Notes under the pieces: model-generated | Databases searched by the model: none | The model's input: only the letters and a program-made list of their open reading frames with translations | Told to the model about the DNA's origin: nothing | Part shown: positions 699 through 23,830 of the stretch, piece by piece | Numbering within the stretch: the first letter of the stretch is position 1 | Layout of the letters: each line of letters starts with the position of its first letter | From: Methanobacteriota archaeon | Lineage (GTDB): Archaea; Thermoplasmatota; Poseidoniia; Poseidoniales; Poseidoniaceae | Reading direction: 5' to 3' | NCBI GenBank assembly: GCA_018623995.1 | Contig: JAAZUV010000002.1 | Span: 1 to 34,632 of the forward strand | Length of the DNA: 34,632 bases | Position numbers and translations under genes: made by a program

Positions 699-3600
699 GT
701 GATATTGATGCAAACAGAGACAAACAAAATCGGGGCAAAACTTCGAAGCGTATTTCTTGTACTCATAATGGTTCTATCGACAACGGCTGCCTTTGCAACC
801 AACGCAAGCGCATCCGCTGCACGGAATTATACTACCAACCGTGACCCAATTGACATCGGTATTGCCGATTTCAACTGTGATGGCCACAACGATATGGCCG
901 TTGCTACCGACGGTACACACACCATTACGATCCTCTTGAACGATGGTACTGGTGACTTCACAGAGCGCTACGACGTTTGGGTCTCCAAGAACACTTCTCG
1001 AAACGCCGAGTGGGATGAGTTCTCCAACGTCCAGTTCCTCGAAGTCGGAGAGTTCAATGGTGACAGCGCACCAGATATCGCCATCTTCCAGCGGAACAAC
1101 CCATTCAAGACAGACGACAACGGCGCACCTGCTGGTGAACCAGGAAACCTGACCATTCTCGAGAACGATGGCTGCAACAGCGACTCGTTCACCATCGGTC
1201 AGCGATACACCCACTTCTGGGCATGGGATCTCGCCGTGGGAGACATCAACCAAGATGGCAACGATGACGTCATCATTCTCGATCTCTTGAACGACATCTC
1301 CAACCAGCGTGTCGTCACCTACATGGGCCCAATCGGTGCAAGCACTACGCCAATGGTTACAGCATTAGGGACTGCAAATACCAACTCCTATCGAAGTCTC
1401 GAAATCGGTGATTGGGGCGAGTCCCAACAAGGCCTCACCGGACAATGTTACGACGAGGATATCTGGCTCTTGCGCAGTGAAGGAGTTGACTATGCAACCG
1501 GTCAAACAACCAACCCTGGTAACGATGACAACGTGACCATCATCGAATTCAACTGTCAAACCAATCTGTTCCCAGCAACGTACACCTTCTCGACATCCAC
1601 TCAAGCAGGATCCCATGTCGTCAACATGGCCAACATCTTCGGTGCCTTTGACATCGGTGATATGGACAACGATGGAACCATCGATACCATCGCTATGACA
1701 CAAGGTAACCTCGAGAACATCACCTTCTCGACCTCCTCCGCTGTCGGTACCTGGTCAAGCCCTACCTTGGCATACTTCGGCCCATACATCTCTTACGACG
1801 TTACTGTGGCCGATATCAACGGGGACGGTGAACCAGATTTCGTCAACCCAACCGTTGCATACCAACAAAACACCTCGGACTCCGCTGGTGGTTCAACCTC
1901 TTCCTTCTGGCTCAACTTCCCAACAACCGTTCAAGTAACGCTCTCTGACGGGTCCGGTGGACACGTAACGCCACTCTCCTATGAGGCTGGACGTCGTCCA
2001 AACATTGCCGTGGTTGGACAACTCGCTGGTGCATCAACTTCTGCACCAGACATCGTTGTCGGACACGCGTCCTACAACTTCGGAAACTGGGTTGATAACC
2101 TAGGTTGGGATGCTCAATACGACTATCTTACTGTTGTTGAGATGGACAGCAAAGACATCGCTGTAACCGGCATCGAGATCAATCCAGTCGATCGGTTCTT
2201 TGGTATCGTTGGTGAAGGAAACCGAGACATTAACGTCACGATCACCAACACTGGAATGGACACGCTCACACAAAACGCAAACCTCGATGTCGTTCTCCAA
2301 GTCGTTGACGAAGCGAACTCTTCCAACTCGACGGTGTTTAGCCATGATTTCGACACGCCTGCCGATGCGACAGGATGTGGCGGCGGTTGTACCTGGGCGT
2401 TCAACGAATACGTCGACCAATCCTCAAACTGGATTCTTGAAACCAATCACTCTGTTGGTGGTAGCGACGGAAACAATGCACCAAACGTGTCTGCGAACTA
2501 TCAAAACCCAACCGACTTCATGTGGGCAGGGGAATACAAGACCAACAGCAGTGGCGACGAATGGTCAGGATACGGCCGTCACTGGGACGATGCACTTACA
2601 CTCGAGGACGTTGACTTGACGGGCTCTGACCGTGCTTTCCTCAGCGTCGAGTTGTTCCGACACCTTGGTTACGGTGCTCTCGGGTCTGTTGATGCAACCA
2701 CTGGACAGTGGCTCATCGGTGACCTTTGGGACGATGTTGCCATGATCGAAGTTGGCTCGGCTGAGACTGGATGGTCGACCATCGCCTGTCCAACATCTGC
2801 TCAGGTTGCAGGAGAGTGTCTCTCTGGGTCCTCCATCTGGGGTGGCTATGACAACGACCGTGCCTTCAAGATCAACGGCTATGGCGGTGTTGCAGAAGGA
2901 CGCTACTATTACGGTGTCTTCAGCTCAGGTACCTACTACGGATGGAGCAACTTTACCCAGGAAGGCGTTGGTGAGTTCGACCTGTCTCCATGGGCTGGTG
3001 AAACCGTTGACATCCGATTCCGTCTCCGCTCAGGATTCGAAGGATCGATTGCTGATGACAACGAATCTCTCTGGTCCGGTCGAGATGGATATGCCATTGA
3101 CAACATCACCATCTACAAGCAAAACACTGCTTACTTCCCGAACCCACAAACACTTCAACAACCACTCGCGTTGACCAATCTAGGACCGGGTGAGGAAGAA
3201 ACTGCCTCGATTTCAGCCAACCTCCTCAACGATACGATTTATCGAATCTCAGCGACCCTCAGCAACCATGCATGGGACGAGCAAAGTGTGAACGACGAGA
3301 TCATCGGTTACATCCAACCGTTCAATCTCTATGACCCGACAGTTGAAGGTATCGATTACTTCAATCCTGGTGGCCTGTATGCTGAAGGCATGTTCGATAT
3401 CGATGTCATTACCAACAACTGGGGTAACACCATGGTGGACTACGATATCAAGGCAACCGTCTTCTCTGCAACGCCTTCCGACGTTCTCTGCAGCGCACCT
3501 GCAGTCATCTGTAAGGAATCCTTCGAAGGTGGTGCCAACGGATACGTCTACAGTGACGATGGCAACCCACAAGGTGCCATCTACAACGAAGCGACCTGTA

Positions 3601-6600
3601 ACGATCTCATTTTCAATAACAACGCCTACTGGTTCGGTCACCCATGTGACACAGCAACGCAAGGATACGGCGACTTGTGGGAGAACGAGACGCTCACCAT
3701 CCCTGGTGTTGATTTGACCAGCATGTCCGGTGATTTCGTTTCACTGAACTTCGAGTACTATGCAGATACCTTCTACGGTATCGATGTCGACGGAACATCC
3801 ATTGTCGATGTCAACGACTATGCTTCCATCAACGTCGATTTCACCAAGGGTAGCGACACATACTCAGGTGTTCTCCTCGGACAATGGAACGACTACGACG
3901 AAGACGGAACCTGCCGCAACGACGACAACGGTGACGGATTCACGAACTCAAGTGAATCCATCAACCAAGCAGAGATTTCCTTCATCGGCGACTCTGCCAG
4001 CACGGACGGATCTGCCGGCAATTACAACGTCTTCTTCAACACAGACGATCTGGTTTTGAGCCGAAGCATCGACTTGACGCATCTGTACGTCCTCAACAAC
4101 ACCGCTGCAGACAGCTTGCAGTGGTTCCGTGAGTGCATTTCCCTCGCAGGCTCGACCGTTGACATCAACTTCGAGTTCCAGAGCGACGGAGACGGCCGCA
4201 ACGGTATCAACGACGGTTTCAAGGGTGTAGCCTTCAACAACATCACATTACAGGAATTCACATTCTACGAGGATGCTTCCTACACCGTTTCCCGAACCAA
4301 CGTTGATGCAGAAGACGTTGCAACAACCACCGTTGCCAACCACGAGTTCTTCTCCGGTGTCTACATGATTCGTGCAGAGACGATCTTCGACAACACCACC
4401 GCTGGTGTACCATGGTTTGGCGACAATGAACTGAGCAACTCCAACAACATCGAGCAAGTGATCTTCAACGTTGAATCGGTTGACATCACGCTCGGTAAGC
4501 CAAGTACACTTGCGTGCTTGGATGATGGTGTCTACGCTTGTGTTCTCCCAATCGATGGAAGTTTGACACACAACTGGGACCTCAAGGCAACCAACGGTGT
4601 GTTGGCTGGTGATTACATGTTCTACATGACCGTCTTTGACGAGACCGATGGAACACAAGCCTACCAGGCTTCTTCTGCTCCAACGACCACAACACTCGCA
4701 TCCAACGAGCGCATTGACTTGACGTTCCCTGCGTACAACGGTTGGATGGATGGCCACACCTACAACGTCAGTTTCCACGCTGAACTTGCCAACGGAAACC
4801 CAAGCGGTAACGTTCGCTACTTCCATGCAACCTTTGCTGACCAAATCGATGTTGCCATCCTTGGTGATTCAACCGCACGTACCTCGACCATCAAGCAGGA
4901 TCTCCAACTCTTGGGCATGTCCTACACACAGTACGGCATCAACGATTGGACCACCTATCTTGACTCTGGATGGATGACCCACTACGACAAGATTCTCTTG
5001 CCATGGCAAGAAGACATCGCTGCAAAGGACGTTGAAAGCGGTGGCCGTGGTTACTACCAGAAGCTCGGATCAACTGCCAACCGACAAACGCTCGAATCGT
5101 TCATGTCTGCTGGAGGTACCGTACAGGCTCACCTTGGTCCTCAAGGAAGCCAAATCTACGGTCTTGACGTTGGATTGAACGGACGACTACCGTTTGGTAT
5201 GGATGTCCAAAGTCGAAACACACCTGAGACCAAGATTCTCTACACAGGTCTCGACATTGCGGACCCATTCCACCCAATCATGGACGATGTGTCCACGACC
5301 GCCTTCCAAGGCTTCGAGGGTGATGGAACTGTTGCAACAGCCGTTCTCAACACAAACTCTGTTAGCACGCAAAACGTTCCAGGTGTCTGTAACGGATACA
5401 TGGAGGATGGAGGCTTCTTCCAGAGTTTGTTGCGAACCGATGCGAACAGCAAGGACGTCATCATGGGAACATGCAGTTACTACCAAGGTGGAATGATTGT
5501 TTCCACCATTGACGTATCGACCTACTCGTCTCGAGCAGACAGCACAACCTTCCCACTTCTCGGAAACATGCTGTCCTACTCCGTCACGCCTTACCCAGAA
5601 GGATTCGGTGCTATGGGCCAAGATCTCGGACTGACCATTGATGGTGAAATGCCAGGCATTGATCCATCAACCGGTGGCTATGCTACACACTACATGAAGA
5701 GCGATGCGACCGTCAACTTCGGTTACACAACAGCTACCTCAGCAACGCTCACAGCCGATTGGATCCTTGACGGACCAACCGACTGGATGGGCCAAACCAT
5801 GGCAAGCGGAACCGACCACATTTCGGAAGCCTCTCCATCTGCGACCTTCTGTAAGACCGACTTGTCGTCTGCAACAGGATGTCTCCAAGGTGCCACATGG
5901 ACCGTCACTCTGCTTCTGCACGATGAAGCAGGTCACGCTCGAATCATCACCGTCGATGTCGAAACCAACGACGTCCTCGCTGACGCATTCGCACCTGAAG
6001 CAAACATGAGCATCGACATGCGTGATGAATACGCAGACAACATCGAGTACATCGGAACAAAGACAGTTTCCAGCACAGAATGGGACGTCAACCGTGTGAT
6101 TCTCTCCGAAGCTGGTGAACTTGTTCTCCACTTCGATGCGAGTGAATCGTTCGATGCAGATGCCATCGATGGAACCAACGGAATTGTTACCTACGAATGG
6201 AAGGTCTTCTTCGACGCTCCGTACGGTGACACCTCGTTCAACTTGGAAGGACACACGTTCGAAGAATCCGCCGCAAGCAACGGTCTCTTCTCGTACAAGT
6301 TCCAAAACGTCACCGTTGACGATTCAGGAACAGCAGAATCGCAGATTCGTATGGAACTTCGTGTGTACGATGCATCCGGTAAGTTCTCGGACAAGTTCCG
6401 TATGTACTTCGTTGTCGTACCTGAAGGATATGGGGACGAAATCCCAGTCGTTCAATACGACAACTTCGACAACGCCTCCGTGGGCTTCACCTCCGAATCT
6501 GAATTCACCATCACAGGAACCATCCTCTCCGGATCGGAAACAGGTGAGGTCTACGTTGAAGCAGCCTTCAATGAGGATGATTTCTCTGCCTCGGCAATTG

Positions 6601-7376
6601 AGAAGTACAACCTCATTACGGACAAGCGATTTGACCGCAGCGACGCTCTATCAGACTCCGACACGTTCGAACTGTCGCTCTTTATCGGCGACCGATACAG
6701 AAACACAAGCGAAGTTGTGGAAATCTGGGTCCGAGTGTACGAAGGTGACGACGAGCGTTGGTCAGATGAACTCACAAAGAGCGTCATTGTCAAACTGAAC
6801 ATTTGTCAAGGCATTCTCGCAAATGAATCTGCCAGCATTGCTGACGGAGCAGATTCCTTCGTCTGGAATTCAACTACCATGCGCTGTGACTGGATTGGTT
6901 CTTGGTCCTATGATCACGAAACCGGCGTTTGGACAGCGCCAACGACCGATCAACAAGGCACCGAAGATGCAGAGGAAAGCAGCATGATGCTCATTATTGG
7001 TATCATTGCGACTGTTCTTGTCCTTCTGCTTGTATCTGCCTTCTTCCTCCGTGGTGGAAGCGGTGACAAGGTCGACAACCTCAGTGCCGCTGCCGCAGGC
7101 TATGGTCAAGAGATGGATATGACGGAACAATACGTCCAGCAATTGATCGCTCAAGGCTACCCAGAAGAAACCGCACGGGCCTATGCAGCTCAATATGTGG
7201 GTCAATCTGCAGCAGCTGCAGCGCCAGCCGCTGCCGCACCTGCAGCTGCAAGCAACGATTTGTACACGCAGTACTACAACCAGTACTTCCAGCAATTCGT
7301 AGCCCAGGGTTACGATGAGGCGACGGCTGCGCAATATGCACAGCAGTATGCCGCACAAGCCCAACAGCAGCAATAG
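699..7376 (+). CDS. giant (2225 aa) type-I membrane surface protein: signal peptide, FG-GAP/VCBS-like propeller repeats, PKD-like module, C-terminal TM helix, Q/A/Y-rich cytoplasmic tail
   Basis: Single uninterrupted 6.7-kb ORF; start is GTG 699 or ATG 708. The N-terminus KLRSVFLVLIMVLSTTAAFATNASA is signal-peptide-like. Repeated Ca-binding blade motifs are present: DFNCDGHNDMAV, GEFNGDSAPDIAIF, GDINQDGNDDVIIL, GDMDNDGTIDTIAM, ADINGDGEPDFVNP. LHFDASESFDADAIDGTNGIVTYEWKVFF is PKD-like. There are many N-x-S/T sequons. TM helix MMLIIGIIATVLVLLLVSAFFL lies at 6984-7049 and a 108-aa tail at 7050-7373. Confidence 0.9.
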   Translation: MILMQTETNKIGAKLRSVFLVLIMVLSTTAAFATNASASAARNYTTNRDPIDIGIADFNCDGHNDMAVATDGTHTITILLNDGTGDFTERYDVWVSKNTSRNAEWDEFSNVQFLEVGEFNGDSAPDIAIFQRNNPFKTDDNGAPAGEPGNLTILENDGCNSDSFTIGQRYTHFWAWDLAVGDINQDGNDDVIILDLLNDISNQRVVTYMGPIGASTTPMVTALGTANTNSYRSLEIGDWGESQQGLTGQCYDEDIWLLRSEGVDYATGQTTNPGNDDNVTIIEFNCQTNLFPATYTFSTSTQAGSHVVNMANIFGAFDIGDMDNDGTIDTIAMTQGNLENITFSTSSAVGTWSSPTLAYFGPYISYDVTVADINGDGEPDFVNPTVAYQQNTSDSAGGSTSSFWLNFPTTVQVTLSDGSGGHVTPLSYEAGRRPNIAVVGQLAGASTSAPDIVVGHASYNFGNWVDNLGWDAQYDYLTVVEMDSKDIAVTGIEINPVDRFFGIVGEGNRDINVTITNTGMDTLTQNANLDVVLQVVDEANSSNSTVFSHDFDTPADATGCGGGCTWAFNEYVDQSSNWILETNHSVGGSDGNNAPNVSANYQNPTDFMWAGEYKTNSSGDEWSGYGRHWDDALTLEDVDLTGSDRAFLSVELFRHLGYGALGSVDATTGQWLIGDLWDDVAMIEVGSAETGWSTIACPTSAQVAGECLSGSSIWGGYDNDRAFKINGYGGVAEGRYYYGVFSSGTYYGWSNFTQEGVGEFDLSPWAGETVDIRFRLRSGFEGSIADDNESLWSGRDGYAIDNITIYKQNTAYFPNPQTLQQPLALTNLGPGEEETASISANLLNDTIYRISATLSNHAWDEQSVNDEIIGYIQPFNLYDPTVEGIDYFNPGGLYAEGMFDIDVITNNWGNTMVDYDIKATVFSATPSDVLCSAPAVICKESFEGGANGYVYSDDGNPQGAIYNEATCNDLIFNNNAYWFGHPCDTATQGYGDLWENETLTIPGVDLTSMSGDFVSLNFEYYADTFYGIDVDGTSIVDVNDYASINVDFTKGSDTYSGVLLGQWNDYDEDGTCRNDDNGDGFTNSSESINQAEISFIGDSASTDGSAGNYNVFFNTDDLVLSRSIDLTHLYVLNNTAADSLQWFRECISLAGSTVDINFEFQSDGDGRNGINDGFKGVAFNNITLQEFTFYEDASYTVSRTNVDAEDVATTTVANHEFFSGVYMIRAETIFDNTTAGVPWFGDNELSNSNNIEQVIFNVESVDITLGKPSTLACLDDGVYACVLPIDGSLTHNWDLKATNGVLAGDYMFYMTVFDETDGTQAYQASSAPTTTTLASNERIDLTFPAYNGWMDGHTYNVSFHAELANGNPSGNVRYFHATFADQIDVAILGDSTARTSTIKQDLQLLGMSYTQYGINDWTTYLDSGWMTHYDKILLPWQEDIAAKDVESGGRGYYQKLGSTANRQTLESFMSAGGTVQAHLGPQGSQIYGLDVGLNGRLPFGMDVQSRNTPETKILYTGLDIADPFHPIMDDVSTTAFQGFEGDGTVATAVLNTNSVSTQNVPGVCNGYMEDGGFFQSLLRTDANSKDVIMGTCSYYQGGMIVSTIDVSTYSSRADSTTFPLLGNMLSYSVTPYPEGFGAMGQDLGLTIDGEMPGIDPSTGGYATHYMKSDATVNFGYTTATSATLTADWILDGPTDWMGQTMASGTDHISEASPSATFCKTDLSSATGCLQGATWTVTLLLHDEAGHARIITVDVETNDVLADAFAPEANMSIDMRDEYADNIEYIGTKTVSSTEWDVNRVILSEAGELVLHFDASESFDADAIDGTNGIVTYEWKVFFDAPYGDTSFNLEGHTFEESAASNGLFSYKFQNVTVDDSGTAESQIRMELRVYDASGKFSDKFRMYFVVVPEGYGDEIPVVQYDNFDNASVGFTSESEFTITGTILSGSETGEVYVEAAFNEDDFSASAIEKYNLITDKRFDRSDALSDSDTFELSLFIGDRYRNTSEVVEIWVRVYEGDDERWSDELTKSVIVKLNICQGILANESASIADGADSFVWNSTTMRCDWIGSWSYDHETGVWTAPTTDQQGTEDAEESSMMLIIGIIATVLVLLLVSAFFLRGGSGDKVDNLSAAAAGYGQEMDMTEQYVQQLIAQGYPEETARAYAAQYVGQSAAAAAPAAAAPAAASNDLYTQYYNQYFQQFVAQGYDEATAAQYAQQYAAQAQQQQ

Positions 7377-7436: not shown

Positions 7437-8711
7437 ATGGAAGGTTTGGATACGGGCGAAGGCTATGCAGTTCGCAACATTGGACTTGCAGATGAAGGAT
7501 CCCTGAGAGTCGATTGGGCTCGTTCCAGAATGCCGGTTCTGGCAGCACTACGAGAAGAAGCCGAGCGCACCAAACCACTGGCTGGTATGCGTGTAGCAGG
7601 TTGTTTGCACGTGACCAAAGAGACCGCTGTGCTGGTCGAAACCATCGCTGCTGCTGGTGCTGAACTTTCTTGGTCCGGTTGCAATCCTTTGTCAACACAA
7701 GACGATGTAGCAGCTTGGCTTGCCCGTGAAGGCTATTCTGTGTATGCTTGGCATGGTCAAAGCGTTGATGATTTCTATTGGTGCATTGACAAGACCCTGG
7801 AGTTCAAGCCAACACTCACGCTTGATGATGGAGCGGATTTGATCGTCCGTGTCCATGGTGAACGCTCTGAATATGCAGAAGGTGTTCTCGGTGGAACAGA
7901 GGAAACCACAACTGGTGTGCACCGACTTCGAGCAATGGCTGCTGCTGGTGACCTCAAGTATCCTGTCATCGCCGTCAACGATGCTGTAACCAAGTGGGAC
8001 TTTGACAACGTCTACGGTACTGGACAATCAACGCTCGATGGAATCTTGCGAGCAACATCTGTTCTTATCGCAGGGAAAACAATGGTGGTAGCAGGGTATG
8101 GTCACTGTGGAAAAGGTGTTGCCATGCGCGCCCGTGGTCTAGGAGCCAACGTTATCGTGACGGAAGTGGATCCACTCGCTGCACTACGAGCCGTTATGGA
8201 TGGTTACAAGGTCATGACCATGGACGATGCTGCACCATTGGGTGACATCTTCTGTACTGCGACCGGAATGAAAGACATCATTGTCGAGCGCCACTTTGCA
8301 ACGATGAAGGATGGAGCCATCGTATCCAACACTGGGCATTACGATTGCGAAATCGATGTCGTTGCACTCGAGAATCTCTCCACCTCCGTTCGAACCATTC
8401 GAAAGGATAACGAAGAATTCACGCTTGGGAATGGAAATAAAATCCATCTTCTTGCTCGAGGACGACTCGTGAACCTTGCAGCCGCTGAAGGCCATCCTTC
8501 TGAAGTCATGGATATGTCCTTCGCAAATCAATTTCTTTCGTTGTGCAGACTCGCTGCTGAAGCCAAGGATATGGATAACAACGTCTACGACATCACCATT
8601 GAACAAGACCAGAACTTAGCGACGACCAAACTCGAGACGATCGGTGTGAGCATTGATACACTAACAGATGATCAAATCGACTACAAAGACGATTATACTG
8701 CAGGAACCTGA
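7437..8711 (+). CDS. ahcY: S-adenosyl-L-homocysteine hydrolase (adenosylhomocysteinase)
   Basis: 424 aa. NAD-binding motif GKTMVVAGYGHCGKGVAMRARGLGANVIVTEVDPLAALRAVMDGYKV, plus ETTTGVHRL, the HYDCEID region and GRLVNLAAAEGHPSEVMDMSF, are all classic SAHH signatures. Confidence 0.95.
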   Translation: MEGLDTGEGYAVRNIGLADEGSLRVDWARSRMPVLAALREEAERTKPLAGMRVAGCLHVTKETAVLVETIAAAGAELSWSGCNPLSTQDDVAAWLAREGYSVYAWHGQSVDDFYWCIDKTLEFKPTLTLDDGADLIVRVHGERSEYAEGVLGGTEETTTGVHRLRAMAAAGDLKYPVIAVNDAVTKWDFDNVYGTGQSTLDGILRATSVLIAGKTMVVAGYGHCGKGVAMRARGLGANVIVTEVDPLAALRAVMDGYKVMTMDDAAPLGDIFCTATGMKDIIVERHFATMKDGAIVSNTGHYDCEIDVVALENLSTSVRTIRKDNEEFTLGNGNKIHLLARGRLVNLAAAEGHPSEVMDMSFANQFLSLCRLAAEAKDMDNNVYDITIEQDQNLATTKLETIGVSIDTLTDDQIDYKDDYTAGT

Positions 8712-8716
8712 GCTAC

Positions 8717-9754
8717 TTATTCCTCTTCAAATGAGGTGAGTTCCTCATCCTGCTCTTCTTCCCAGAATGGAGCCTCATCGGAGATGTGTGAAGAGAAATT
8801 AGGCAGCTTTGGTTTCCAATCACCCTTGAAGGTCTCTTTCGCATCCACAATTTTCAGCATTCGATCTTGGAATGCAGGCGGCCTTCTGCTAAGAATGAAC
8901 ATGAACAGTTTGGAAATTCGAATTTCTTCCGGTATGACGACATAGCCTGTTGCAGTTTCAAAATCCATAGCTCGTAACAGATTGAACGCAGGCCGGTTAA
9001 GTCGTTGGAACCATCGCCTTGAGATACGCATTCCGAAGATGACTGTTGTAAGGATGAGTAATGAGGTAAGACAGAAACCTCCGAACCCTGAGCCGAAAAA
9101 CTGTGGCGCCATGATGACTTCCAGCATGAGGATTGGTGTTGTTATGAGAAGGAATATTTTCGATTCACTGATCGGCGGTTTGTTCATTCGCATCTTGATG
9201 GCTTCCCAACCATCGTGATGTTTTTCCCACGGTTTGAAATGCTCAGAAGACGGCTGTTCACTTGCCAATTGACACATTTGATGCAATCGTGCAACGCGCG
9301 CATACTGTGTAGTAGCAAGATCCATGTTTTCATCAAAAATCGACTGCAACCGATCGCTTGCTTCACTGTACAGTCCCATATCTGCTAGAATAGCTGCTTG
9401 CTCAACAATCGGCGTGACCTCTTCTGGAGCATGATGACGTGCATCTTGCCACCATTGTAGCGCATCCATGTACAAACCAAGTTCATCGGAAAGCAATCGC
9501 CCTCCTCGAACCCACATAGCCAAATCATCCGGTTGGAGAGCAACCACCTTCTTCGCAGCAGAGAGTGAGGAAGCAGCTTGCTTCAAGGTTGGTTGCAATC
9601 GAGATCCTGGAAGACTCGCATCAGAAATGACTCTCCAAGCATCAGCATGTTCGGGGTCAATTTTGACCGCCTTTCGAGCATGCGTGAGCGCTTCTTCACG
9701 GTTTTCAGCGTCAAGGGCTTCAAGCGCATCCAAGTAATGGGCTTCTGCTGTCAC
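8717..9754 (-). CDS. TPR-repeat membrane protein (hypothetical)
   Basis: 345 aa. The N-terminal half has TPR-like helical repeats (YLDALEALDAENREEALTHARKAVKIDPEHADAWRV...). Hydrophobic segments IFLLITTPILMLEVIMAPQFF and FCLTSLLILTTVIFGM sit mid-protein. The C-terminus is acidic and ends in FEEE. Convergent with ahcY across a 5-nt gap. Confidence 0.75.
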   Translation of the reverse strand: MTAEAHYLDALEALDAENREEALTHARKAVKIDPEHADAWRVISDASLPGSRLQPTLKQAASSLSAAKKVVALQPDDLAMWVRGGRLLSDELGLYMDALQWWQDARHHAPEEVTPIVEQAAILADMGLYSEASDRLQSIFDENMDLATTQYARVARLHQMCQLASEQPSSEHFKPWEKHHDGWEAIKMRMNKPPISESKIFLLITTPILMLEVIMAPQFFGSGFGGFCLTSLLILTTVIFGMRISRRWFQRLNRPAFNLLRAMDFETATGYVVIPEEIRISKLFMFILSRRPPAFQDRMLKIVDAKETFKGDWKPKLPNFSSHISDEAPFWEEEQDEELTSFEEE

Positions 9755-9765
9755 GTCCGTTCACC

Positions 9766-10773
9766 TCAGTCGTCTCGATCCTTGCCTTGATAGCGTCGAG
9801 GACGAATGGGTTGAGGTCCTCGGTTGTGTGCATGGCCTGGCCGTTTTCCTCGAGCTTTTCGATAACGCTCATTTGGACGCTCATCGTTGTGATCACGGCT
9901 TGGACGACCTCGTCCAGAGTCACGTCGATCATCACGACCGTCTCTGTTCCCGCCGAATCCACGGCCTCCGTCGCGCCTTCCGCCACGTCGATCTGAATCC
10001 CTTCCACGACCTCCGTCGCGGCTTCCACCACGTCGGTCTGAATCTCTTCCACGACCTCCACCGAATCCACGGCCTCCGTCACGGCTTCCACCGCGTCGGT
10101 CTGAATCTCTACCACCTCGTTGACCACGGTCTGAAAAGCCTCCACGAGACCGTCCATGGCCGCCGCCAGGCTTTGGCTTTCCACAACTGTTGCATTCCGT
10201 TCGGAATGAGAAGTTAATGTTGCCACATGAGGGGCATTCCCAATCGTTGCGTCCATGACGTTCCTGTTGAGGTCGGTCTCGACGATTGTTTGAGCGGTTA
10301 TTGTCTCTGAAGGAGGATTTGTAGGCTTTGACATTCCCTTCTTTGGCTTTGCCACAACTGTTGCATTCCGTTCTCCAGGAGAAATTGACATTGTTGCAAG
10401 CAGCACAAACCCAGTCGTCTTTTTGTTCGTCATTCCTTCGACGATTGTCTCGACGATCAAAAGAGCGGTCGTCACGACGTTGAGGTCGATCGCTGCGTTG
10501 CTCTCGACGAGGACGTTCTTCACGTTCTTTCTTTGCTCGAATGGTTACAATAGCACCGATGAATGCATCGTTGTCTTGCTTCCGATCAAGATGCGCGACA
10601 TGTGCAAGAGGGGCTTCGGTCGAGCCAAGAACTGCGTCGACCTTACCAATGTAGTGCCCATCTTCCTCTCGGACGATGATGGAGCCAAGAGCTGGTGAAG
10701 AGCCACTAAAGGTGAGAAGTAAACCACCCTCGTGGCTTGTACGGTCTACAGTACCTCGAAACATGTCCCTCAA
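9766..10773 (-). CDS. Gar1-like (H/ACA RNP) core fused to two RanBP2-type zinc fingers and an RGG/GAR repeat region
   Basis: 335 aa. Residues 1-80 resemble archaeal Gar1 (G.V....GLLL......P.LGS.V......YIGKVDAVLGS.E.P...V......IGA.V.I). Two exact W-x-C-x2-C-x3-N-x6-C-x2-C fingers are present: WVCAACNNVNFSWRTECNSC (10354-10413) and WECPSCGNINFSFRTECNSC (10183-10242). An RGG-rich region lies at 9904-10167 with three RDSDRRGG(S/R)RDGGRG units. Confidence 0.8.
   Translation of the reverse strand: MRDMFRGTVDRTSHEGGLLLTFSGSSPALGSIIVREEDGHYIGKVDAVLGSTEAPLAHVAHLDRKQDNDAFIGAIVTIRAKKEREERPRREQRSDRPQRRDDRSFDRRDNRRRNDEQKDDWVCAACNNVNFSWRTECNSCGKAKEGNVKAYKSSFRDNNRSNNRRDRPQQERHGRNDWECPSCGNINFSFRTECNSCGKPKPGGGHGRSRGGFSDRGQRGGRDSDRRGGSRDGGRGFGGGRGRDSDRRGGSRDGGRGRDSDRRGGRRDGGRGFGGNRDGRDDRRDSGRGRPSRDHNDERPNERYRKARGKRPGHAHNRGPQPIRPRRYQGKDRDD
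9959..10110 (-). repeat. in-frame 45-bp tandem repeat (3 units, third separated by an 18-bp insert) encoding RDSDRRGGSRDGGRG
   Basis: Plus-strand units are at 9959-10003, 10004-10048 and 10067-10110 (ccacg[g/a]cctccgtc.cg.cttcc.cc.cgtcg.tctgaatc.ct). The repeat lies inside the Gar1-like CDS. Confidence 0.85.
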
Positions 10774-10809
10774 CCCTACGTGCCTTGCAACTGCGTTTGA
10801 GTCTGTTGG

Positions 10810-12726
10810 TCAATCTCGGCGTGATGAAACCCATCCTGCTGCAACCAATCCAATCATCAGCGTAGCAAGGAGTCCTGGAGCAGGAAGGATGTTCCCGCCC
10901 TCATCTTCGCTGTTGGTTGTGGTTGAATCGCCACCTGAATCTGTGCCTCCAGCGTTCGGATCAATCACATCGATGCTCAAAGTGGTCGATGCACCAGACT
11001 CATCGGTTGCAACAATAACCACATTGTATGGTGATTCGACGTTGTTCTGGATGCAGTTGGCAATGGAGACTTGAATTTCCCATGCGAGATTGTCTCGATT
11101 GAAATTCGATGTTTGGCCGTTGCAGATGCTCAAGACCATGCTCACATCTTGACCATCAGGATCGATGACGTTTCCATTGAGCGTAAATTTCAGTCCATCG
11201 AGTTCCCACTCAGCCTCTTGACCCTGAAGATTGGTATCAATTGTAATCGTTGGAGGTGTGTTTGCCTTTTCAATGCCCAGATCAAGCATGAAGTTGTAAT
11301 CCAACATCCCATTGGCGGTGGCTGAACCCATGATCATGACTTCGCCAGGTGCAAGGCCAGACATCGACAACGAGAGAACCGTGAAGGCCCCTTGAGCCAC
11401 CGCAGTCGTTTCCGAGCCCATAGCGGACATTTGATGTGCGTGAGCTGTTACAGTTAGGCTTTGAACAAGGTCGGTTGGTGCAACAGTGAATTCGATTTGG
11501 TCACCGTCACTTGACACTGCTGCAGAGGCGTCCATGACCTTGCCGAAGGTGTAGTTGCGGTGTTCAACGGTTTCTGCGCCAAATGCATCGACGCCAGCAC
11601 ACTGTCCTACGGCTGAATCACCGTTTGCAGTAACGTACAACGCAGCGTTTTCATCCATGCGAACATCCCAGCCAGCATCGACGAAATTACATTGCAAACT
11701 CCATCCGCTCTCGTCGGTCACCCACGTACCTGCATCTTCGCTTGCAAGCATCTCTCCGTTGGTTGTTCCAACTGGGATGATGGTCCCTTCAGCGGGTGCA
11801 AGTGCGGTCCAAACAGGGTCCTCGTTGGTGAACGGTGCCATGGTCGTAAAGTCAACAAACAGATTACGGACCATTGGATAGGAACCGAGCGGGTAATCGA
11901 CATCAGCGACGATGCGCAATCGTCCGTCAGGCAGGAATTCGCTCTCTGGTACTGCAAGTGCTTCGTTGAGAACTCCGTCGTCATAGAAGCCCATTTCAGC
12001 AACACGTAGTCCTTGTTCGACCGGGAAGGTCATGATCAAGCGTGCATCGGTGATGTTGGTGATGTTCATGGCGAGTGTAAAGTTCGAACTACCTTGGTTC
12101 GGAAGCTGGTCAAAACGCACATTGTTGTTCTCATTTTCAGCAATAAGCAGATGAATTTCCAGATCGTCCGTCACTGTGACCGGGACCTCCTTGCATCCTG
12201 CATCTGAAAGTGGGCTACTGCATGATCGCTCTTGCTCGTGACCGGTTGGAACGAGGTTGACTTCATCGAGTGCAATTCCGTCCTCCACGAATTCAAGATC
12301 GTTCCAGTCCACGTTTCCTCGATGTGCAAGCCCTTCACGAATACCGAGTCGGGTTTCCATGTCGGCGATACACTTTGGTCCGATGGAGCGAACAGCTTCT
12401 CGCTCGTCGGTTGAAATCCAGTCATCGTCACCACCAGGGACGCCCTCAAACAGACCATCCAAATTGTCTCGGACAACAGCGGATTTGCTGCCGTTCACCC
12501 ATGCTCTCGCATCCATGACCCCAGTAGCCCAATCGTCGTTCACATCGAGCGTGAAGAGAGCGAAATCGTATTCGAAGAGGTCTTCGAACGTGTAGCCACT
12601 GCAATCAACATCGAGGCTACCTTGACGTCCAGATGTTGTCTGAACAGGTTCGCTTTCATCCAAAGTGGACATTTCAATCGACGGACTCACGAGGGCTAGA
12701 AGCATCATGATGAGGACGGGTATCAT
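10810..12726 (-). CDS. secreted/cell-surface protein with C-terminal PGF-CTERM-like anchor (hypothetical)
   Basis: 638 aa. Signal-like N-terminus MIPVLIMMLLALVSPSIEMS. An Ig/cadherin-like C-terminal module is present (..NGNVIDPDGQDVSM...VVIVATDESGASTTLSIDVIDPN). A G/S/T/D linker is followed by LPAPGLLATLMIGLVAAGWVSSRRD-stop. Confidence 0.8.
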   Translation of the reverse strand: MIPVLIMMLLALVSPSIEMSTLDESEPVQTTSGRQGSLDVDCSGYTFEDLFEYDFALFTLDVNDDWATGVMDARAWVNGSKSAVVRDNLDGLFEGVPGGDDDWISTDEREAVRSIGPKCIADMETRLGIREGLAHRGNVDWNDLEFVEDGIALDEVNLVPTGHEQERSCSSPLSDAGCKEVPVTVTDDLEIHLLIAENENNNVRFDQLPNQGSSNFTLAMNITNITDARLIMTFPVEQGLRVAEMGFYDDGVLNEALAVPESEFLPDGRLRIVADVDYPLGSYPMVRNLFVDFTTMAPFTNEDPVWTALAPAEGTIIPVGTTNGEMLASEDAGTWVTDESGWSLQCNFVDAGWDVRMDENAALYVTANGDSAVGQCAGVDAFGAETVEHRNYTFGKVMDASAAVSSDGDQIEFTVAPTDLVQSLTVTAHAHQMSAMGSETTAVAQGAFTVLSLSMSGLAPGEVMIMGSATANGMLDYNFMLDLGIEKANTPPTITIDTNLQGQEAEWELDGLKFTLNGNVIDPDGQDVSMVLSICNGQTSNFNRDNLAWEIQVSIANCIQNNVESPYNVVIVATDESGASTTLSIDVIDPNAGGTDSGGDSTTTNSEDEGGNILPAPGLLATLMIGLVAAGWVSSRRD

Positions 12727-12772
12727 GTTTGGACGAGACCAACAACGTTCATCAATGCTTGGTTAAGAACAG

Positions 12773-13603
12773 TCAAGGAACAAGCCGATTCAGTCGACGC
12801 TGGAACAGGTAGACCGGTACAATTGTCCATAGGATGGCAGCAAAGTAAGCGCCAAGTGCTGAAACACCTCGATCAACCCCGTCCAATCGGGTCTCCAAAA
12901 GGTGATGATAGACTCCGTTCGGAGAAAGCAAATCCAAGCGCCCCTCAAACACGAGGTATCCTTGATCTTGAGTGTCGCCAACTGCAACGCCGTTCAATGC
13001 AGCGAGAAGTGTCGTGAACAGGACCCAGAGCAATGTGAACAAGAACCACAGGCCGATTGAAAATGCAATGGCAGAGCCTTGTTCCTTGGCAATACTTGAT
13101 GCGAGCAGGGCGAAGACAGTGTACCACAGAAGAATTAACATCGCTGCAACGATGTAGATCAGGGCATCACCAAACGGCATCCACATACCGCTTCGATATC
13201 CTACAAGCATCATGGATGCAGCCAAAAGAACTGCCACAGGAAGCGCAATGCTGCTCCAATGGCCAAACATGAGGACAACACCTTGTCTCCATCGTGGCAT
13301 TGGTTGGGAAAGGCGGACTTCGAGAACACCGCTCACACGATCTCGGCTTATTCCATCGTGAGCGATGAGGACGGCAGCCATCGTCCCAGCAAAGACGATA
13401 CCAATGCTTGCAAGGAACATGACTTCCGTTCCGTTCTTTGGAAGCTGTTCTGCTGGAAGCTGAATGTTTGGGTCTGCGAAACCCCAAGCCATTCCTGGAA
13501 TGAACAACAAAAGAATCGGCAGCATGATCAACATCCGTGTCGACAACATTCGTTGCTTACTGAGAGCAAACGCAAGCCGCCACATTCGTTTGGATGGTGT
13601 CAT
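12773..13603 (-). CDS. ABC-2 type transporter permease
   Basis: 276 aa with six hydrophobic segments, typical of ABC-2/NosY-like permeases. Its ATG overlaps the stop of the upstream ATPase gene (ATGA, 13600-13603). Confidence 0.8.
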   Translation of the reverse strand: MTPSKRMWRLAFALSKQRMLSTRMLIMLPILLLFIPGMAWGFADPNIQLPAEQLPKNGTEVMFLASIGIVFAGTMAAVLIAHDGISRDRVSGVLEVRLSQPMPRWRQGVVLMFGHWSSIALPVAVLLAASMMLVGYRSGMWMPFGDALIYIVAAMLILLWYTVFALLASSIAKEQGSAIAFSIGLWFLFTLLWVLFTTLLAALNGVAVGDTQDQGYLVFEGRLDLLSPNGVYHHLLETRLDGVDRGVSALGAYFAAILWTIVPVYLFQRRLNRLVP

Positions 13604-13617
13604 TCTTCCTCACCACC
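13600..13617 (-). promoter_or_regulatory. Shine-Dalgarno plus stop/start overlap (translational coupling junction)
   Basis: The minus strand reads GGTGGTGAGGAAGAATGA (GGEEE-stop of the ABC-2 ATPase, with the ATG of the permease inside). It matches the phnC/phnE-like junction at 17 of 18 positions. Confidence 0.7.
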
Positions 13618-14610
13618 CACTGTTCGGAACGGTATCATGCTGCTTTGTTCAACATCCATTCCGATGGTTTCCCGATCCATCCCTGTTGCTGCGCAAAGCA
13701 GTTCGATGAGCGTTGGAGGTACAACTCTCCAGGTTGAAATTGTATGATTGTTCTTCACGAGTGTCTCGAGAAGGTCATGATGGCCCGATTCGATGACATA
13801 GCGATGTTGTCTTTCGGATTCGATGTGTTCGAGAACGTTCATTGCGTCGAGAAGTTCTTGCTCGATTTGCCGATCGAGAACGATTTCAGTCATTTGTTCA
13901 AAGCCAAGATTGGCTCGAAGTGAATCGGTTGTGCCATGAGCGAGCAGTTGGCCACGGTGAAGCAATGCAATGGTGTCAACGAGGTGATCAAGTTCTGCGA
14001 GATGATGGCTTGAAACGATGATCGAGATGCCTTTGTTTGCTAACGAGCGAAGCAAACGTTTGAACGCATCAATTGCAACTGGATCCATGCCATTGAATGG
14101 TTCATCGAGGACGAGAACACGTGGCGTTCCAAGCAAAGCAACGCCCAATGAAAGCCGTTGCCTCATACCTTGACTCAATGAATCAAGGGTAGAATCCATT
14201 CGATTTTTGAGTCCCACAACGGCAAGAACATCGAGTGCAGATTGAACCGAGCAGCCACGCAAGTGTGCAAATTCAGTCATCGTTCGACGAATGGTTCCTT
14301 GACTCGACCATCGGACTTGTTCAGGCATGAATCCGACCAAGGAACGTAAAGCATCGCTGTCCATTACGCTATCATGGCGTTTCACCGTTCCTTCTTCGAG
14401 CGGGAGGATGCCGCTGATCATCCGCAAGAGTGTGGTTTTTCCAGCACCGTTTGTTCCTACTAAGCCAATGATGCTTCCTTCCGGAATGGAAAGATCGACG
14501 TGGGTGATTCCCGCTCCTTTTCGTTTTTTGAACGGATTGTACCATGCAGGATTTGGAATTTGGTGGCGATATCCGATGGAGTCAAACTGCATCGCATCGT
14601 CATCCCCCAT
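13600..14610 (-). CDS. ABC transporter ATP-binding protein (ABC-2 exporter type, with C-terminal extension)
   Basis: 336 aa. Walker A GTNGAGKTT, signature LSQGMRQRL, Walker B VLVLDEPFNGMD, H-loop SSHHL, and a roughly 100-aa C-terminal domain ending GGEEE. Confidence 0.9.
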   Translation of the reverse strand: MGDDDAMQFDSIGYRHQIPNPAWYNPFKKRKGAGITHVDLSIPEGSIIGLVGTNGAGKTTLLRMISGILPLEEGTVKRHDSVMDSDALRSLVGFMPEQVRWSSQGTIRRTMTEFAHLRGCSVQSALDVLAVVGLKNRMDSTLDSLSQGMRQRLSLGVALLGTPRVLVLDEPFNGMDPVAIDAFKRLLRSLANKGISIIVSSHHLAELDHLVDTIALLHRGQLLAHGTTDSLRANLGFEQMTEIVLDRQIEQELLDAMNVLEHIESERQHRYVIESGHHDLLETLVKNNHTISTWRVVPPTLIELLCAATGMDRETIGMDVEQSSMIPFRTVGGEEE

Positions 14611-21986: not shown

Positions 21987-22001
21987 TGTACATAATGTAC
22001 A
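21987..22001. promoter_or_regulatory. perfect 7-1-7 palindrome TGTACATAATGTACA in the divergent promoter upstream of ribB
   Basis: Read directly from the sequence. It lies between the endonuclease-IV-like gene (minus strand) and the likely ribB start at 22040. The AT-rich centre could double as a TATA element. Confidence 0.4.
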
Positions 22002-22747: not shown

Positions 22748-22776
22748 TCTCAAGAACATGATTCCTCTGCTCAAAA

Positions 22777-23229
22777 TTGGTGAACACAATGAGAAAGGTC
22801 ATGGCTGTAGGAGTTTTTGACCTTCTCCACGCAGGCCATCTTCACTATCTTGAGCAAGCAAAGGCCCTTGGAGATCACCTCACCGTGGTCGTTGCTCATG
22901 ACGATACCGTTCGTAAGCGAAAGCATGAACCAGTTACCAATCAGGACCTTCGTCGTCGAATGGTTGAAGGTTTGAAACCGGTTGATGTTGCGTGCATTGG
23001 TAATTCTCCAGATGTTCCTATTTTCGACATCCTACCTGAGATTCAACCATCCATCATCGCCTTAGGATACGATCAGGAACATGCTGAAGATCGAATTCGA
23101 ACCGCATTGGAAGAACGAGGATTCACCTCGATTGAAGTTGTTCGAGTTGAAGGTTTGAGCGACGATTTGGATGGAACTCGGAAGATCATCGCTCGCATCG
23201 TTGAGCGAGCAAAGGGAGGCGAATTCTGA
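22777..23229 (+). CDS. ribL: archaeal FAD synthetase (FMN adenylyltransferase), cytidylyltransferase family
   Basis: About 145 aa; the track start is TTG 22777 and the likely start is ATG 22789 or 22801. The nucleotidyltransferase motif VMAVGVFDLLHAGHLHYLEQAK and overall size match archaeal RibL. The stop overlaps the ribE start by 1 nt (TGATG). Confidence 0.8.
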   Translation: MVNTMRKVMAVGVFDLLHAGHLHYLEQAKALGDHLTVVVAHDDTVRKRKHEPVTNQDLRRRMVEGLKPVDVACIGNSPDVPIFDILPEIQPSIIALGYDQEHAEDRIRTALEERGFTSIEVVRVEGLSDDLDGTRKIIARIVERAKGGEF

Positions 23230-23828: not shown

Positions 23829-23830
23829 AC

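What the first reader, a model, noticed from the sequence alone, without database searches (positions are those of the whole stretch)
9766..10773. Archaeal Gar1 core fused to two RanBP2-type zinc fingers and an RGG/GAR repeat tail (eukaryote-like RNA-binding architecture)
Archaeal Gar1 proteins are normally small single-domain proteins. The glycine-arginine-rich (GAR) flanks that give Gar1 its name are regarded as a eukaryotic feature. Here a Gar1-like beta-barrel N-terminus (aa 1-80) is followed by a basic R/D/E linker and then two zinc fingers. Both fit the RanBP2/ZRANB2 consensus exactly (W-x-C-x2-C-x3-N-x6-C-x2-C). They also carry the NF.[WF]R..CN.C signature of the ssRNA-binding subclass found in ZRANB2 and FUS/EWS/TAF15.

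After the fingers come about 85 aa of RGG/RDGG repeats, generated by a 45-bp tandem repeat. The ZnF + RGG combination is the arrangement of eukaryotic FET-family and snoRNP proteins. Finding it on an H/ACA component in an archaeon is unusual. It suggests extra RNA-binding or condensate-type behaviour, or arginine methylation, in archaeal pseudouridylation RNPs.
Basis: partly seen in the sequence, partly recalled or inferred. Interest (0 to 1): 0.75.

Follow-up and report, generated by a model that had tools for sequence, protein, structure and literature searches.

The report
Gar1 with RNA zinc fingers, RG tail
Marine Group II archaea (Poseidoniales) carry a version of the small pseudouridylation-complex protein Gar1 that has gained one to four eukaryote-type RNA-binding zinc fingers and an arginine/glycine-rich tail; this is a real, order-wide feature that I could not find described in any paper.

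Summary
Window 9766-10764 (- strand) encodes a 332-aa protein; the likely start is the ATG at 10764, not the TTG at 10773.

- **Core:** aa 1-84 fold as a Gar1 beta-barrel. The AlphaFold2 model has pLDDT 90, and its best matches among solved structures are all Gar1 (P. furiosus, TM 0.77/0.85). Sequence evidence is weak and below the curated cut-offs.
- **Fingers:** two RanBP2 zinc fingers pass Pfam (E 3.5e-14). Their closest solved relatives are FUS and ZRANB2. The residues that read GGU in those proteins are 93-100% conserved across 230 distinct fingers of the family.
- **Tail:** a 95-aa disordered Arg/Gly/Asp tail contains a 45-bp tandem repeat.

The fusion is not a one-off. At least 203 species-level genomes carry it, all named ones Poseidoniales of both families, in conserved synteny and with 0-4 fingers. 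Annotation pipelines label it "zinc finger Ran-binding" or "Gar1"; no paper found describes it.

Best reading: this is the Poseidoniales Gar1, with an added single-stranded-RNA-binding module comparable to eukaryotic GAR domains.

Still untested: binding to Cbf5, binding to RNA, arginine methylation, and whether these genomes also hold a canonical short Gar1.

The parts
9766..10764 (-). Whole gene: Gar1-ZnF-RG protein, 332 aa plus stop codon. The TTG at 10773 is a less likely start.
   Evidence: ORF. Homologues start MF.G. 245 homologues at E<=1e-3. 203 matches in species-representative genomes.
10513..10764 (-). Gar1-type six-stranded beta-barrel core, aa 1-84.
   Evidence: AF2 pLDDT 90. Foldseek top 11 hits are all Gar1 or Naf1; best are 2ey4_D and 2hvy_B, TM 0.77/0.85, rmsd 1.6-2.1 A. 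hhalign against Thermococcales Gar1: E 2.5e-5, probability 75%, 66 columns. Only Gar1 models are hit in NCBIfam, by 12 of 22 members.
10423..10512 (-). Disordered Arg/Asp/Glu-rich linker 1, aa 85-114 (40% Arg).
   Evidence: pLDDT <50. Composition.
10327..10422 (-). RanBP2-type zinc finger 1, aa 115-146.
   Evidence: Pfam PF00641. Motif match. pLDDT about 87.
10252..10326 (-). Disordered basic linker 2, aa 147-171.
   Evidence: pLDDT <50.
10162..10251 (-). RanBP2-type zinc finger 2, aa 172-201.
   Evidence: Pfam best stretch. Best PDB sequence hits are the FUS finger 6g99 (E 2.8e-7) and ZRANB2 2k1p/3g9y (E 1e-6). pLDDT about 90.
9877..10161 (-). Disordered Arg/Gly/Asp-rich repeat tail, aa 202-296. 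Includes the 45-bp tandem repeat at 9958-10059.
   Evidence: TRF. Composition and RGG/RG counts. pLDDT <50. Repeat units are gained and lost between relatives that are 92-98% identical over the first 204 aa.
9769..9876 (-). Conserved C-terminal peptide PNERYRKARGKRPGHAHNRGPQPIRPRRYQGKDRDD, aa 297-332. Function unknown.
   Evidence: Nearly invariant among close relatives while the tail varies. Found in 158 family sequences. G306, G310, H311 and P317 are at least 90% conserved. No match in the PDB.

Best explanation
This is the Gar1 subunit of the box H/ACA pseudouridylation RNP of Poseidoniales (Marine Group II archaea), extended at its C-terminus by an accessory single-stranded-RNA-binding module.

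**Proposed mechanism**
1. The N-terminal beta-barrel docks on the catalytic domain of Cbf5 and touches its thumb loop, as P. furiosus Gar1 does, controlling substrate loading and product release.
2. Flexible Arg/Asp-rich linkers tether RanBP2 zinc fingers: two here, 0-4 across the family. Each finger is predicted to read a GGU-like trinucleotide in single-stranded RNA.
3. A disordered RG/RGG-rich tail adds low-specificity RNA affinity.
4. Together these would hold the RNP on, or recruit it to, its RNAs (pre-rRNA, tRNA or guide RNA). This is the role proposed for the GAR domains of eukaryotic Gar1.
5. The conserved C-terminal peptide is probably a docking site for a partner.

**Shown here:** the domain identities, the disorder, the conservation, the order-wide distribution and the single-copy synteny.

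**Inferred:** Cbf5 binding, RNA binding and its specificity, and the functional consequence.
For: - **Gar1 fold.** The AF2 model (pLDDT 90) is closest to P. furiosus Gar1 in the Cbf5-Nop10-Gar1 and full H/ACA RNP crystals, then to eukaryotic GAR1.
- **Gar1 sequence signal.** The only sequence-profile hits are Gar1. hhalign gives E 2.5e-5 in full-domain register. JGI names members Gar1.
- **Fingers.** They pass Pfam and are most similar to the RNA-bound FUS and ZRANB2 fingers.
- **RNA-contact positions.** Over 230 distinct family fingers, the positions matching the ZRANB2/FUS RNA contacts are kept: Asp 99%, Asn 94%, Asn 100%, Phe 98%, Arg 100%, Asn 93%. PMC6384913 shows that D4, N14 and N24 matter for GGU binding and that ZRANB2, EWS and FUS fingers bind GGU.
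- **Beads on a string.** The full-length model has three folded domains separated by disordered segments.
- **Distribution.** Single copy in 80 of 80 listed assemblies, 203 matches in all, in conserved synteny. Present in both Poseidoniaceae and Thalassarchaeaceae.
- **Precedent.** RGG domains of yeast Gar1 alter RNP dynamics and turnover (PMC8096250).
Against: - The Gar1 sequence signal is below every curated threshold.
- A profile of the core finds no PDB Gar1 by sequence.
- That profile also finds what looks like only its own clade: 120 representatives among 1.84 billion, with names checked for 20 of them and all those named being Poseidoniales or unclassified archaeal MAGs. The core is therefore very divergent and could have changed partner.
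- No H/ACA gene (Cbf5, Nop10, L7Ae) or guide RNA lies nearby. The neighbours are an ABC transporter, a surface protein and a TPR/membrane protein.
- I could not check whether these genomes also hold a canonical short Gar1.
- The tail is 17% Asp, unlike eukaryotic GAR domains.
- Some Thalassarchaeaceae-type members lack fingers altogether, so the fingers are dispensable in some lineages.
Confidence: 0.58

Rival explanations
1. It is a neofunctionalised Gar1-fold paralogue: a stand-alone RNA-binding protein (RNA chaperone, ribosome-biogenesis or mRNA-binding factor) that no longer works in the H/ACA RNP. A separate canonical Gar1 would serve Cbf5.
For: The core is highly divergent: below the Pfam and NCBIfam cut-offs, and its profile retrieves what looks like only its own clade. 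There is no H/ACA gene in the neighbourhood. Eukaryotes have a precedent in Naf1, a Gar1-domain paralogue, which also appears among the fold hits.
Against: The best fold matches are bona fide Gar1 chains rather than Naf1. The gene is single copy and conserved across the whole order. No second Gar1-like protein from these archaea surfaced in any search, though the searches could not have seen a canonical one.
Confidence: 0.27
2. The RanBP2 fingers are protein-binding modules (ubiquitin-like modifier or GTPase binding, as in Npl4 and RanBP2/Nup153 fingers), not RNA binders. They would link Gar1 to a protein partner.
For: The RanBP2 finger fold serves both protein and RNA binding in eukaryotes (established knowledge). 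Nup358 fingers appear as weak hits. De Franco et al. found some family members that bind no RNA (PMC6384913).
Against: The top sequence matches are the RNA-binding FUS, ZRANB2 and RBM10 fingers, not Npl4 or Nup fingers. The RNA-contact Asp/Asn/Asn/aromatic/Arg positions are 93-100% conserved. From my own knowledge, not tested here, the Thr-Phe dipeptide of ubiquitin-binding NZF fingers is absent from the C-x3-N segment (NNV and GNI here).
Confidence: 0.08
3. It is an artefact: a chimeric assembly, eukaryotic contamination, or a spurious ORF produced by a GC-rich repeat.
For: The repeat region spawns spurious ORFs in other frames and on the other strand. Many MAG contigs break inside the gene (27 of 79 loci are cut there).
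Against: The same gene sits in the same archaeal synteny in dozens of independent assemblies, including a 1.0-Mb contig. All three domains are under strong conservation.
Confidence: 0.01

Closest known systems
Archaeal Gar1 (e.g. Pyrococcus furiosus PF1791; PDB 2EY4, 2HVY, 3HAY)
   Same: Same six-stranded beta-barrel: TM 0.77 normalised to the query and 0.85 to the target, rmsd about 2 A. The G.V....G.L...P.L..vv....iG.V.dV.G....P pattern aligns in register.
   Different: Only about 20% identity, and below the family cut-offs. Canonical proteins are mostly 90-128 aa with a single PF04410 domain and at most a short Lys-rich end. This one adds about 250 aa of linkers, two zinc fingers, an RG tail and a conserved C-terminal peptide.
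Eukaryotic Gar1/GAR1 with flanking GAR (RGG) domains
   Same: A Gar1 core plus a disordered Arg/Gly-rich, presumably RNA-binding extension. The fold also matches GAR1 in snoRNP and telomerase structures.
   Different: Eukaryotic GAR domains flank the core on both sides, have no zinc fingers and are poor in acidic residues. Here the extension is C-terminal only, is 17% Asp and includes RanBP2 fingers. The core is nearer the archaeal structures by Foldseek E-value.
ZRANB2 and the FET proteins (FUS/EWS/TAF15): RanBP2-type ssRNA-binding finger next to RGG or charged low-complexity regions
   Same: Finger consensus and RNA-contact residues. Finger 1 NFSWRTECNSC and finger 2 NFSFRTECNSC compare with FUS NFSWRNECNQC. 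Tandem fingers joined by flexible linkers, as in ZRANB2. A finger followed directly by an RGG region, as in FUS.
   Different: No RRM, no SYGQ prion-like domain, no RS domain and no PY-NLS; Pfam finds only PF00641 and weak Gar1. The fingers have C-x2-C where FUS has C-x4-C. The host is an archaeon with no spliceosome or nucleus.
Naf1 (eukaryotic H/ACA assembly factor with a Gar1 domain)
   Same: A Gar1-like barrel embedded in a longer, largely disordered protein. It appears among the fold hits: 2v3m, TM about 0.62.
   Different: It ranks below genuine Gar1 chains. Naf1 is known only from eukaryotes and has no zinc fingers or RG tail.

Membership tests
Gar1 (H/ACA RNP subunit; Pfam PF04410, NCBIfam PRK13149 equivalogs) | Six-stranded beta-barrel of the Gar1 type | tested here: met
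   AF2 pLDDT 90. Foldseek top hits 2ey4_D/C and 2hvy_B, then eukaryotic GAR1 chains; unrelated barrels reach only TM <=0.6.
Gar1 (H/ACA RNP subunit; Pfam PF04410, NCBIfam PRK13149 equivalogs) | Sequence score above the curated family cut-off | tested here: not met
   Pfam 14.8 bits against 29.3. NCBIfam 21.8 bits against 132. Only Gar1 models are hit, by 12 of 22 members. hhalign against Thermococcales Gar1 gives E 2.5e-5, probability 75%. HMM against PDB finds no Gar1.
Gar1 (H/ACA RNP subunit; Pfam PF04410, NCBIfam PRK13149 equivalogs) | Binds the Cbf5 catalytic domain and thumb loop and stimulates turnover | not testable with these tools
   No complex prediction or biochemistry is available here.
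Gar1 (H/ACA RNP subunit; Pfam PF04410, NCBIfam PRK13149 equivalogs) | Is the only Gar1 homologue in a genome that also encodes Cbf5, Nop10 and L7Ae | not testable with these tools
   Only about 12-20 kb around each copy could be read. The search with P. furiosus Gar1 reached only Thermococcales. The gene is single copy in 80 of 80 listed assemblies.
RanBP2-type zinc finger, ssRNA-binding subclass (PF00641; ZRANB2/FUS/EWS/RBM5/RBM10) | W-x-C-x2-4-C-x3-N-x6-C-x2-C with a Pfam score above cut-off | tested here: met
   Both fingers match exactly. Pfam 52.2 bits against 27, two stretches.
RanBP2-type zinc finger, ssRNA-binding subclass (PF00641; ZRANB2/FUS/EWS/RBM5/RBM10) | Conserved RNA-contact residues (Asp before Trp; Asn, Asn, aromatic, Arg; Asn after the third Cys) | tested here: met
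   Present in both window fingers and 93-100% conserved in 230 distinct family fingers. Aligned to the FUS and ZRANB2 fingers. Residue roles from PMC6384913.
RanBP2-type zinc finger, ssRNA-binding subclass (PF00641; ZRANB2/FUS/EWS/RBM5/RBM10) | Binds GGU/GGN single-stranded RNA | not testable with these tools
   Needs ITC, EMSA or SELEX with recombinant fingers.
GAR / RGG domain | Disordered region with clustered RGG/RG repeats | tested here: met
   95 aa with 5 RGG, 11 RG and 12 GR; 31% Arg, 33% Gly. pLDDT <50.
GAR / RGG domain | Composition like eukaryotic Gar1 or fibrillarin GAR (Arg/Gly/Phe, few acidic residues) | tested here: not met
   17% Asp and only 3 Phe; the repeat unit is GRDSDRRGGxRDGGRGFGG. 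The reference composition is from my own knowledge.
GAR / RGG domain | Arginine methylation by a PRMT | not tested
   No PRMT-like domain among the window's gene products. No genome-wide search was possible.
FET family (FUS/EWS/TAF15) | SYGQ-rich N-terminus, RRM, RGG regions, one RanBP2 finger, PY-NLS | tested here: not met
   Pfam finds no RRM and the N-terminus is a Gar1 barrel. Only the finger-plus-RGG sub-module is shared.

The most novel reading that the evidence does not exclude
Poseidoniales attached a eukaryote-type RNA-recognition module to their H/ACA RNP, either by capturing it from a eukaryote or by convergence. The module is an array of GGU-reading RanBP2 fingers plus an RG-rich disordered tail. 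It would target the pseudouridylation machinery to specific RNAs, or concentrate it in a nucleolus-like condensate. That would make this the first archaeal small RNP with a functional GAR-like domain, and a natural experiment on why eukaryotic snoRNP proteins acquired GAR domains.
Probability: 0.12. Interest if true: 0.85.

Novelty: new variant of a known kind. Interest (0 to 1): 0.58.

Why it matters
- **It challenges a textbook line.** GAR/RGG extensions on snoRNP proteins (Gar1, fibrillarin) are treated as eukaryote-specific and linked to the nucleus and nucleolus (PMC1865073, PMC7194090, PMC8096250). An abundant marine archaeal order that fixed an RG-rich tail and FUS/ZRANB2-type RNA fingers on its Gar1 shows such accessory RNA-binding modules can be selected without a nucleus.
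- **It offers a tractable system.** The recombinant core, fingers and tail could be used to ask what these extensions do for an H/ACA RNP.
- **It widens the known range of the finger.** It is, as far as my literature searches show, an unreported case of the ssRNA-binding RanBP2 finger subclass outside eukaryotes. That raises a question of horizontal transfer between marine eukaryotes and Marine Group II archaea.
- **It has a practical use.** The gene is a clade-specific marker. It is also a frequent breakpoint in MAG assemblies.

Tried and rejected
- **Core profile against PDB sequences.** No Gar1 hit by sequence, so I had to use structure prediction and hhalign instead.
- **hhalign of the core against the single P. 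furiosus Gar1 sequence.** Only E 0.005 and 7% probability. It improved to E 2.5e-5 and 75% with an 18-sequence Thermococcales alignment.
- **Homologue search with a finger-less distant member, P0207.** It returned nothing, so that search was wasted.
- **Homologue search with P. furiosus Gar1.** It reached only Thermococcales. It could not tell whether Poseidoniales also have a canonical Gar1, and that question stays open.
- **HMMER scan of 1.84 billion representatives with the core profile.** It returned what looks like only this clade (120 representatives), so it gave no bridge to canonical Gar1 by sequence.
- **Rfam and tRNA scans of the window.** Nothing found, so there is no nearby H/ACA guide RNA among known families.
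- **C-terminal peptide against the PDB.** No match.
- **Literature searches.** These combined Gar1, RanBP2, RGG, archaea and Poseidoniales. No paper describes this fusion.
- **Rejected readings.** A FET-family member (no RRM or prion-like domain), Naf1 (ranks below Gar1 and is eukaryote-only), and an assembly artefact (conserved synteny in many assemblies).
Full report
**1. The observation**

Window 9766-10773 (- strand) is an open reading frame of 335 aa from a TTG. Almost every homologue begins MF.G, and the ATG at 10764 is preceded by GAGGG (sequence). I therefore take 9766-10764, 332 aa, as the gene.

- **Zinc fingers.** The two motifs WVCAACNNVNFSWRTECNSC and WECPSCGNINFSFRTECNSC fit W-x-C-x2-C-x3-N-x6-C-x2-C exactly. 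Pfam Zn_ribbon_RanBP (PF00641) is significant: 52.2 bits against a cut-off of 27, E 3.5e-14, two stretches.
- **Repeat.** Tandem Repeats Finder reports a 45-bp unit at 9958-10059, 2.3 copies, 91% matches.
- **Tail.** The segment it lies in (aa 202-296) is 31% Arg, 33% Gly and 17% Asp, with 5 RGG, 11 RG and 12 GR.
- **Gar1 by sequence.** The resemblance is weak: Pfam PF04410 E 0.025, below cut-off; NCBIfam Gar1 equivalog E 1.4e-4, far below cut-off.

**2. Is the N-terminus Gar1?**

I aligned 22 diverse N-termini of the family (A1).

- NCBIfam hits for these members are to Gar1 models only, by 12 of 22.
- AlphaFold2 on A1 gives a confident barrel: pLDDT 90, pTM 0.79.
- Foldseek against the PDB puts P. 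furiosus Gar1 first: 2ey4_D/C and 2hvy_B, TM 0.77 by query and 0.85 by target, rmsd 1.6-2.1 A. Eukaryotic GAR1 from snoRNP and telomerase structures follows, then Naf1. Unrelated barrels (ATP synthase N-terminal domains, RimM, IF2) reach only TM about 0.5-0.6.
- A profile search of PDB sequences misses Gar1.
- hhalign of A1 against 18 Thermococcales Gar1 proteins gives E 2.5e-5, probability 75%, 66 aligned columns across the whole domain.

I conclude the core is a very divergent Gar1 homologue. The fold is established; sequence membership is below the curated thresholds.

**3. The fingers**

Against PDB sequences the finger region is closest to the FUS finger solved with RNA (6g99, E 2.8e-7). 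ZRANB2 finger 2 (2k1p/3g9y, E 1e-6), ZNF265 and RBM10 come next, with Nup358 only marginal.

I collected 435 fingers (230 distinct) from family members. Beyond the Trp and the four Cys, the conserved positions are:

| Position | Residue | Conservation |
|---|---|---|
| before Trp | Asp | 99% |
| 10 | Asn | 94% |
| 12 | Asn | 100% |
| 13 | Phe | 98% |
| 16 | Arg | 100% |
| 20 | Asn | 93% |

. By alignment to ZRANB2 and FUS these are the RNA-contact positions. De Franco et al. report that ZRANB2, EWS and FUS fingers bind GGU with sub-micromolar to micromolar affinity, that Asp4 is critical, and that Asn14 and Asn24 read the third base (PMC6384913). Binding itself is untested.

**4. Whole-protein anatomy**

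A full-length AF2 model built on a 32-sequence alignment (A2) shows beads on a string:

| Residues | Element | pLDDT |
|---|---|---|
| 1-84 | Gar1 barrel | about 90 |
| 85-114 | linker 1 | <50 |
| 115-148 | finger 1 | about 87 |
| 149-171 | linker 2 | <50 |
| 172-201 | finger 2 | about 90 |
| 202-306 | RG tail | <50 |
| 307-322 | C-terminal peptide | about 50-60 |

- Among relatives that are 92-98% identical over the first 204 aa (core and fingers), the tail differs by whole repeat units (GRDSDRRGGxRDGGRGFGG). This fits slippage of the 45-bp repeat.
- The last 36 residues or so (RPNERYRKARGKRPGHAHNRGPQPIRPRRYQGKDRDD) stay almost invariant. A recognisable form of this peptide occurs in 158 family sequences. 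It matches nothing in the PDB.

**5. Distribution**

- A protein search found 245 relatives. Every one that carries a name is from Poseidoniales or an unclassified 'Euryarchaeota/Thermoplasmatota' MAG.
- A scan of one genome per GTDB species found 203 matches. The 80 listed come from 80 different assemblies, almost all labelled Poseidoniales, Poseidoniaceae or Poseidonia. Two sit in bins labelled as bacteria and are probably mis-binned.
- A HMMER scan of 1.84 billion representatives with the core profile returned only 120 proteins at E<=1e-3, and by inspection they all look like this clade.
- Of the 20 more distant representatives whose cluster names I looked up, those that carry a name are Thalassarchaeaceae (MGIIb), Poseidoniales, or unclassified 'Euryarchaeota/Methanobacteriota/Thermoplasmatota' MAGs; several carry no name at all. 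The order and its two families are as in NCBI taxonomy.
- Finger number varies from 0 to 4. Some MGIIb-type members have only a basic tail.
- Naming: NCBI calls members 'zinc finger Ran-binding domain-containing protein'. JGI calls some 'rRNA processing protein Gar1' or 'Gar1/predicted nucleic-acid-binding Zn-ribbon protein'.

**6. Genomic context**

The gene sits in a same-strand run: ABC ATPase (13600-14610), ABC-2 permease (12773-13603), a 638-aa protein with no Pfam match (10810-12726), Gar1-ZnF, and a 345-aa weakly TPR-like protein (8717-9754). A convergent S-adenosylhomocysteine hydrolase (7437-8711) follows.

This order recurs in most fetched loci. Matches to the window's genes were found in 78 loci for the upstream 638-aa protein, 72 and 68 for the ABC permease and ATPase, and 52 for the downstream 345-aa protein. 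It also recurs on a 1.0-Mb contig.

No H/ACA partner gene, Rfam family or tRNA is in the window. No RanBP2 finger occurs elsewhere in the roughly 0.8 Mb of Poseidoniales DNA fetched by that point.

**7. Mechanism**

Archaeal Gar1 binds the Cbf5 catalytic domain and its beta7/beta10 thumb hairpin. It is needed for full activity and does not contact the guide RNA. Archaeal Gar1 is described as lacking the GAR domains of eukaryotic Gar1 (PMC1865073; PMC8096250). In yeast, removing the Gar1 RGG domains changes RNP dynamics and turnover, and the authors suggest contact with substrate RNA.

My best reading (confidence 0.58) is that this protein is the Poseidoniales Gar1. Its barrel would dock on Cbf5. 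Its fingers (GGU-type) and RG tail would add single-stranded-RNA affinity that helps capture or retain substrate or guide RNA. The C-terminal peptide would be a docking site for a partner.

Rivals:
- A paralogue that has left the H/ACA RNP (0.27).
- Fingers that bind protein rather than RNA (0.08).
- An artefact (about 0.01, refuted by synteny).

**8. Comparison with known families, and novelty**

- It works like a eukaryotic GAR-bearing Gar1, and its finger-plus-RGG sub-module resembles ZRANB2 and the FET proteins.
- It is not a FET protein: it has no RRM or prion-like domain.
- Its tail is not a textbook GAR, being 17% Asp.
- Its core fails the curated Gar1 sequence cut-offs while meeting the fold criterion.
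- Seven literature searches found no description of it, or of any archaeal Gar1 carrying GAR or zinc-finger domains.

I rate it a new variant of a known kind.

**9. Limits**

I could not test the following:
- whether Poseidoniales genomes also hold a canonical short Gar1, or a PRMT;
- binding to Cbf5;
- binding to RNA;
- the origin of the fingers (transfer from eukaryotes or otherwise).

Noticed in passing
window 9769-9876 (- strand), aa 297-332: A conserved C-terminal peptide, ..[FY]RKARGKRPGHAHNRGPxPIRPRRY..DD, follows the variable RG tail. It is present in 158 family sequences, with a GHH..DPxPL variant in one sub-clade. It has no PDB match and only modest AF2 confidence. It may be a docking motif.
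   Followed up: partly
window 8717-14610 (- strand); loci L001-L080; L081: A same-strand cluster is conserved across Poseidoniaceae: ABC ATPase, ABC-2 permease, a 638-aa protein with no Pfam match, Gar1-ZnF (45-bp gap), then a 345-aa weakly TPR-like protein (11-bp gap). A convergent SAH hydrolase (7437-8711) follows in many loci. Why Gar1 sits here is unexplained.
   Followed up: partly
loci L006, L009, L015-L019, L021, L026, L027, L029, L031, L033 and others: 27 of 79 fetched loci end inside this gene, mostly in or just before the RG repeat region. The repeat is therefore a frequent contig breakpoint in MAG assemblies, and many database entries for this protein are truncated.
   Followed up: partly
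L081 10001-11409: On a 1.0-Mb ENA contig the gene is called as two overlapping ORFs of 235 and 234 aa. This is probably a frameshift in the repeat region, either an assembly error or a real pseudogene.
   Followed up: no
L008 (CALDQY010000298.1) and L080 (CAXQWT010000111.1): Two contigs carrying this archaeal locus and its Poseidoniales synteny are deposited in MAGs labelled 'uncultured Rhodobiaceae bacterium' and 'Salipiger bermudensis'. This is likely contamination of those bins.
   Followed up: no
window 9720-10523 (-), 9828-10217 (+), 9787-9996 (+): Long ORFs in other frames and on the opposite strand overlap the gene. They are by-products of the GC-rich, repetitive Arg/Gly/Asp codons and are not separate genes.
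   Followed up: partly
proteins P0182, P0183 and P0279 (166-167 aa): Some family members that start MSF.G.. like the Thalassarchaeaceae-type sequences (P0279 is named only 'Methanobacteriota/Euryarchaeota archaeon') have the Gar1-like core and a basic Arg/Ser/Gly tail but no zinc finger. The fingers have therefore been lost, or never gained, in some sub-lineages.
   Followed up: partly
window 699-7376 (+) and 24818-28408 (-): Two giant probable surface proteins: 2225 aa with FG-GAP repeats, and 1196 aa with a WD40-type beta-propeller plus thrombospondin type 3 repeats.
   Followed up: no
window 21995-24232 (+): A riboflavin and flavin-cofactor gene run: DHBP synthase, a cytidylyltransferase-like (FAD synthetase-type) protein, riboflavin synthase (lumazine-binding domains) and lumazine synthase.
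   Followed up: no
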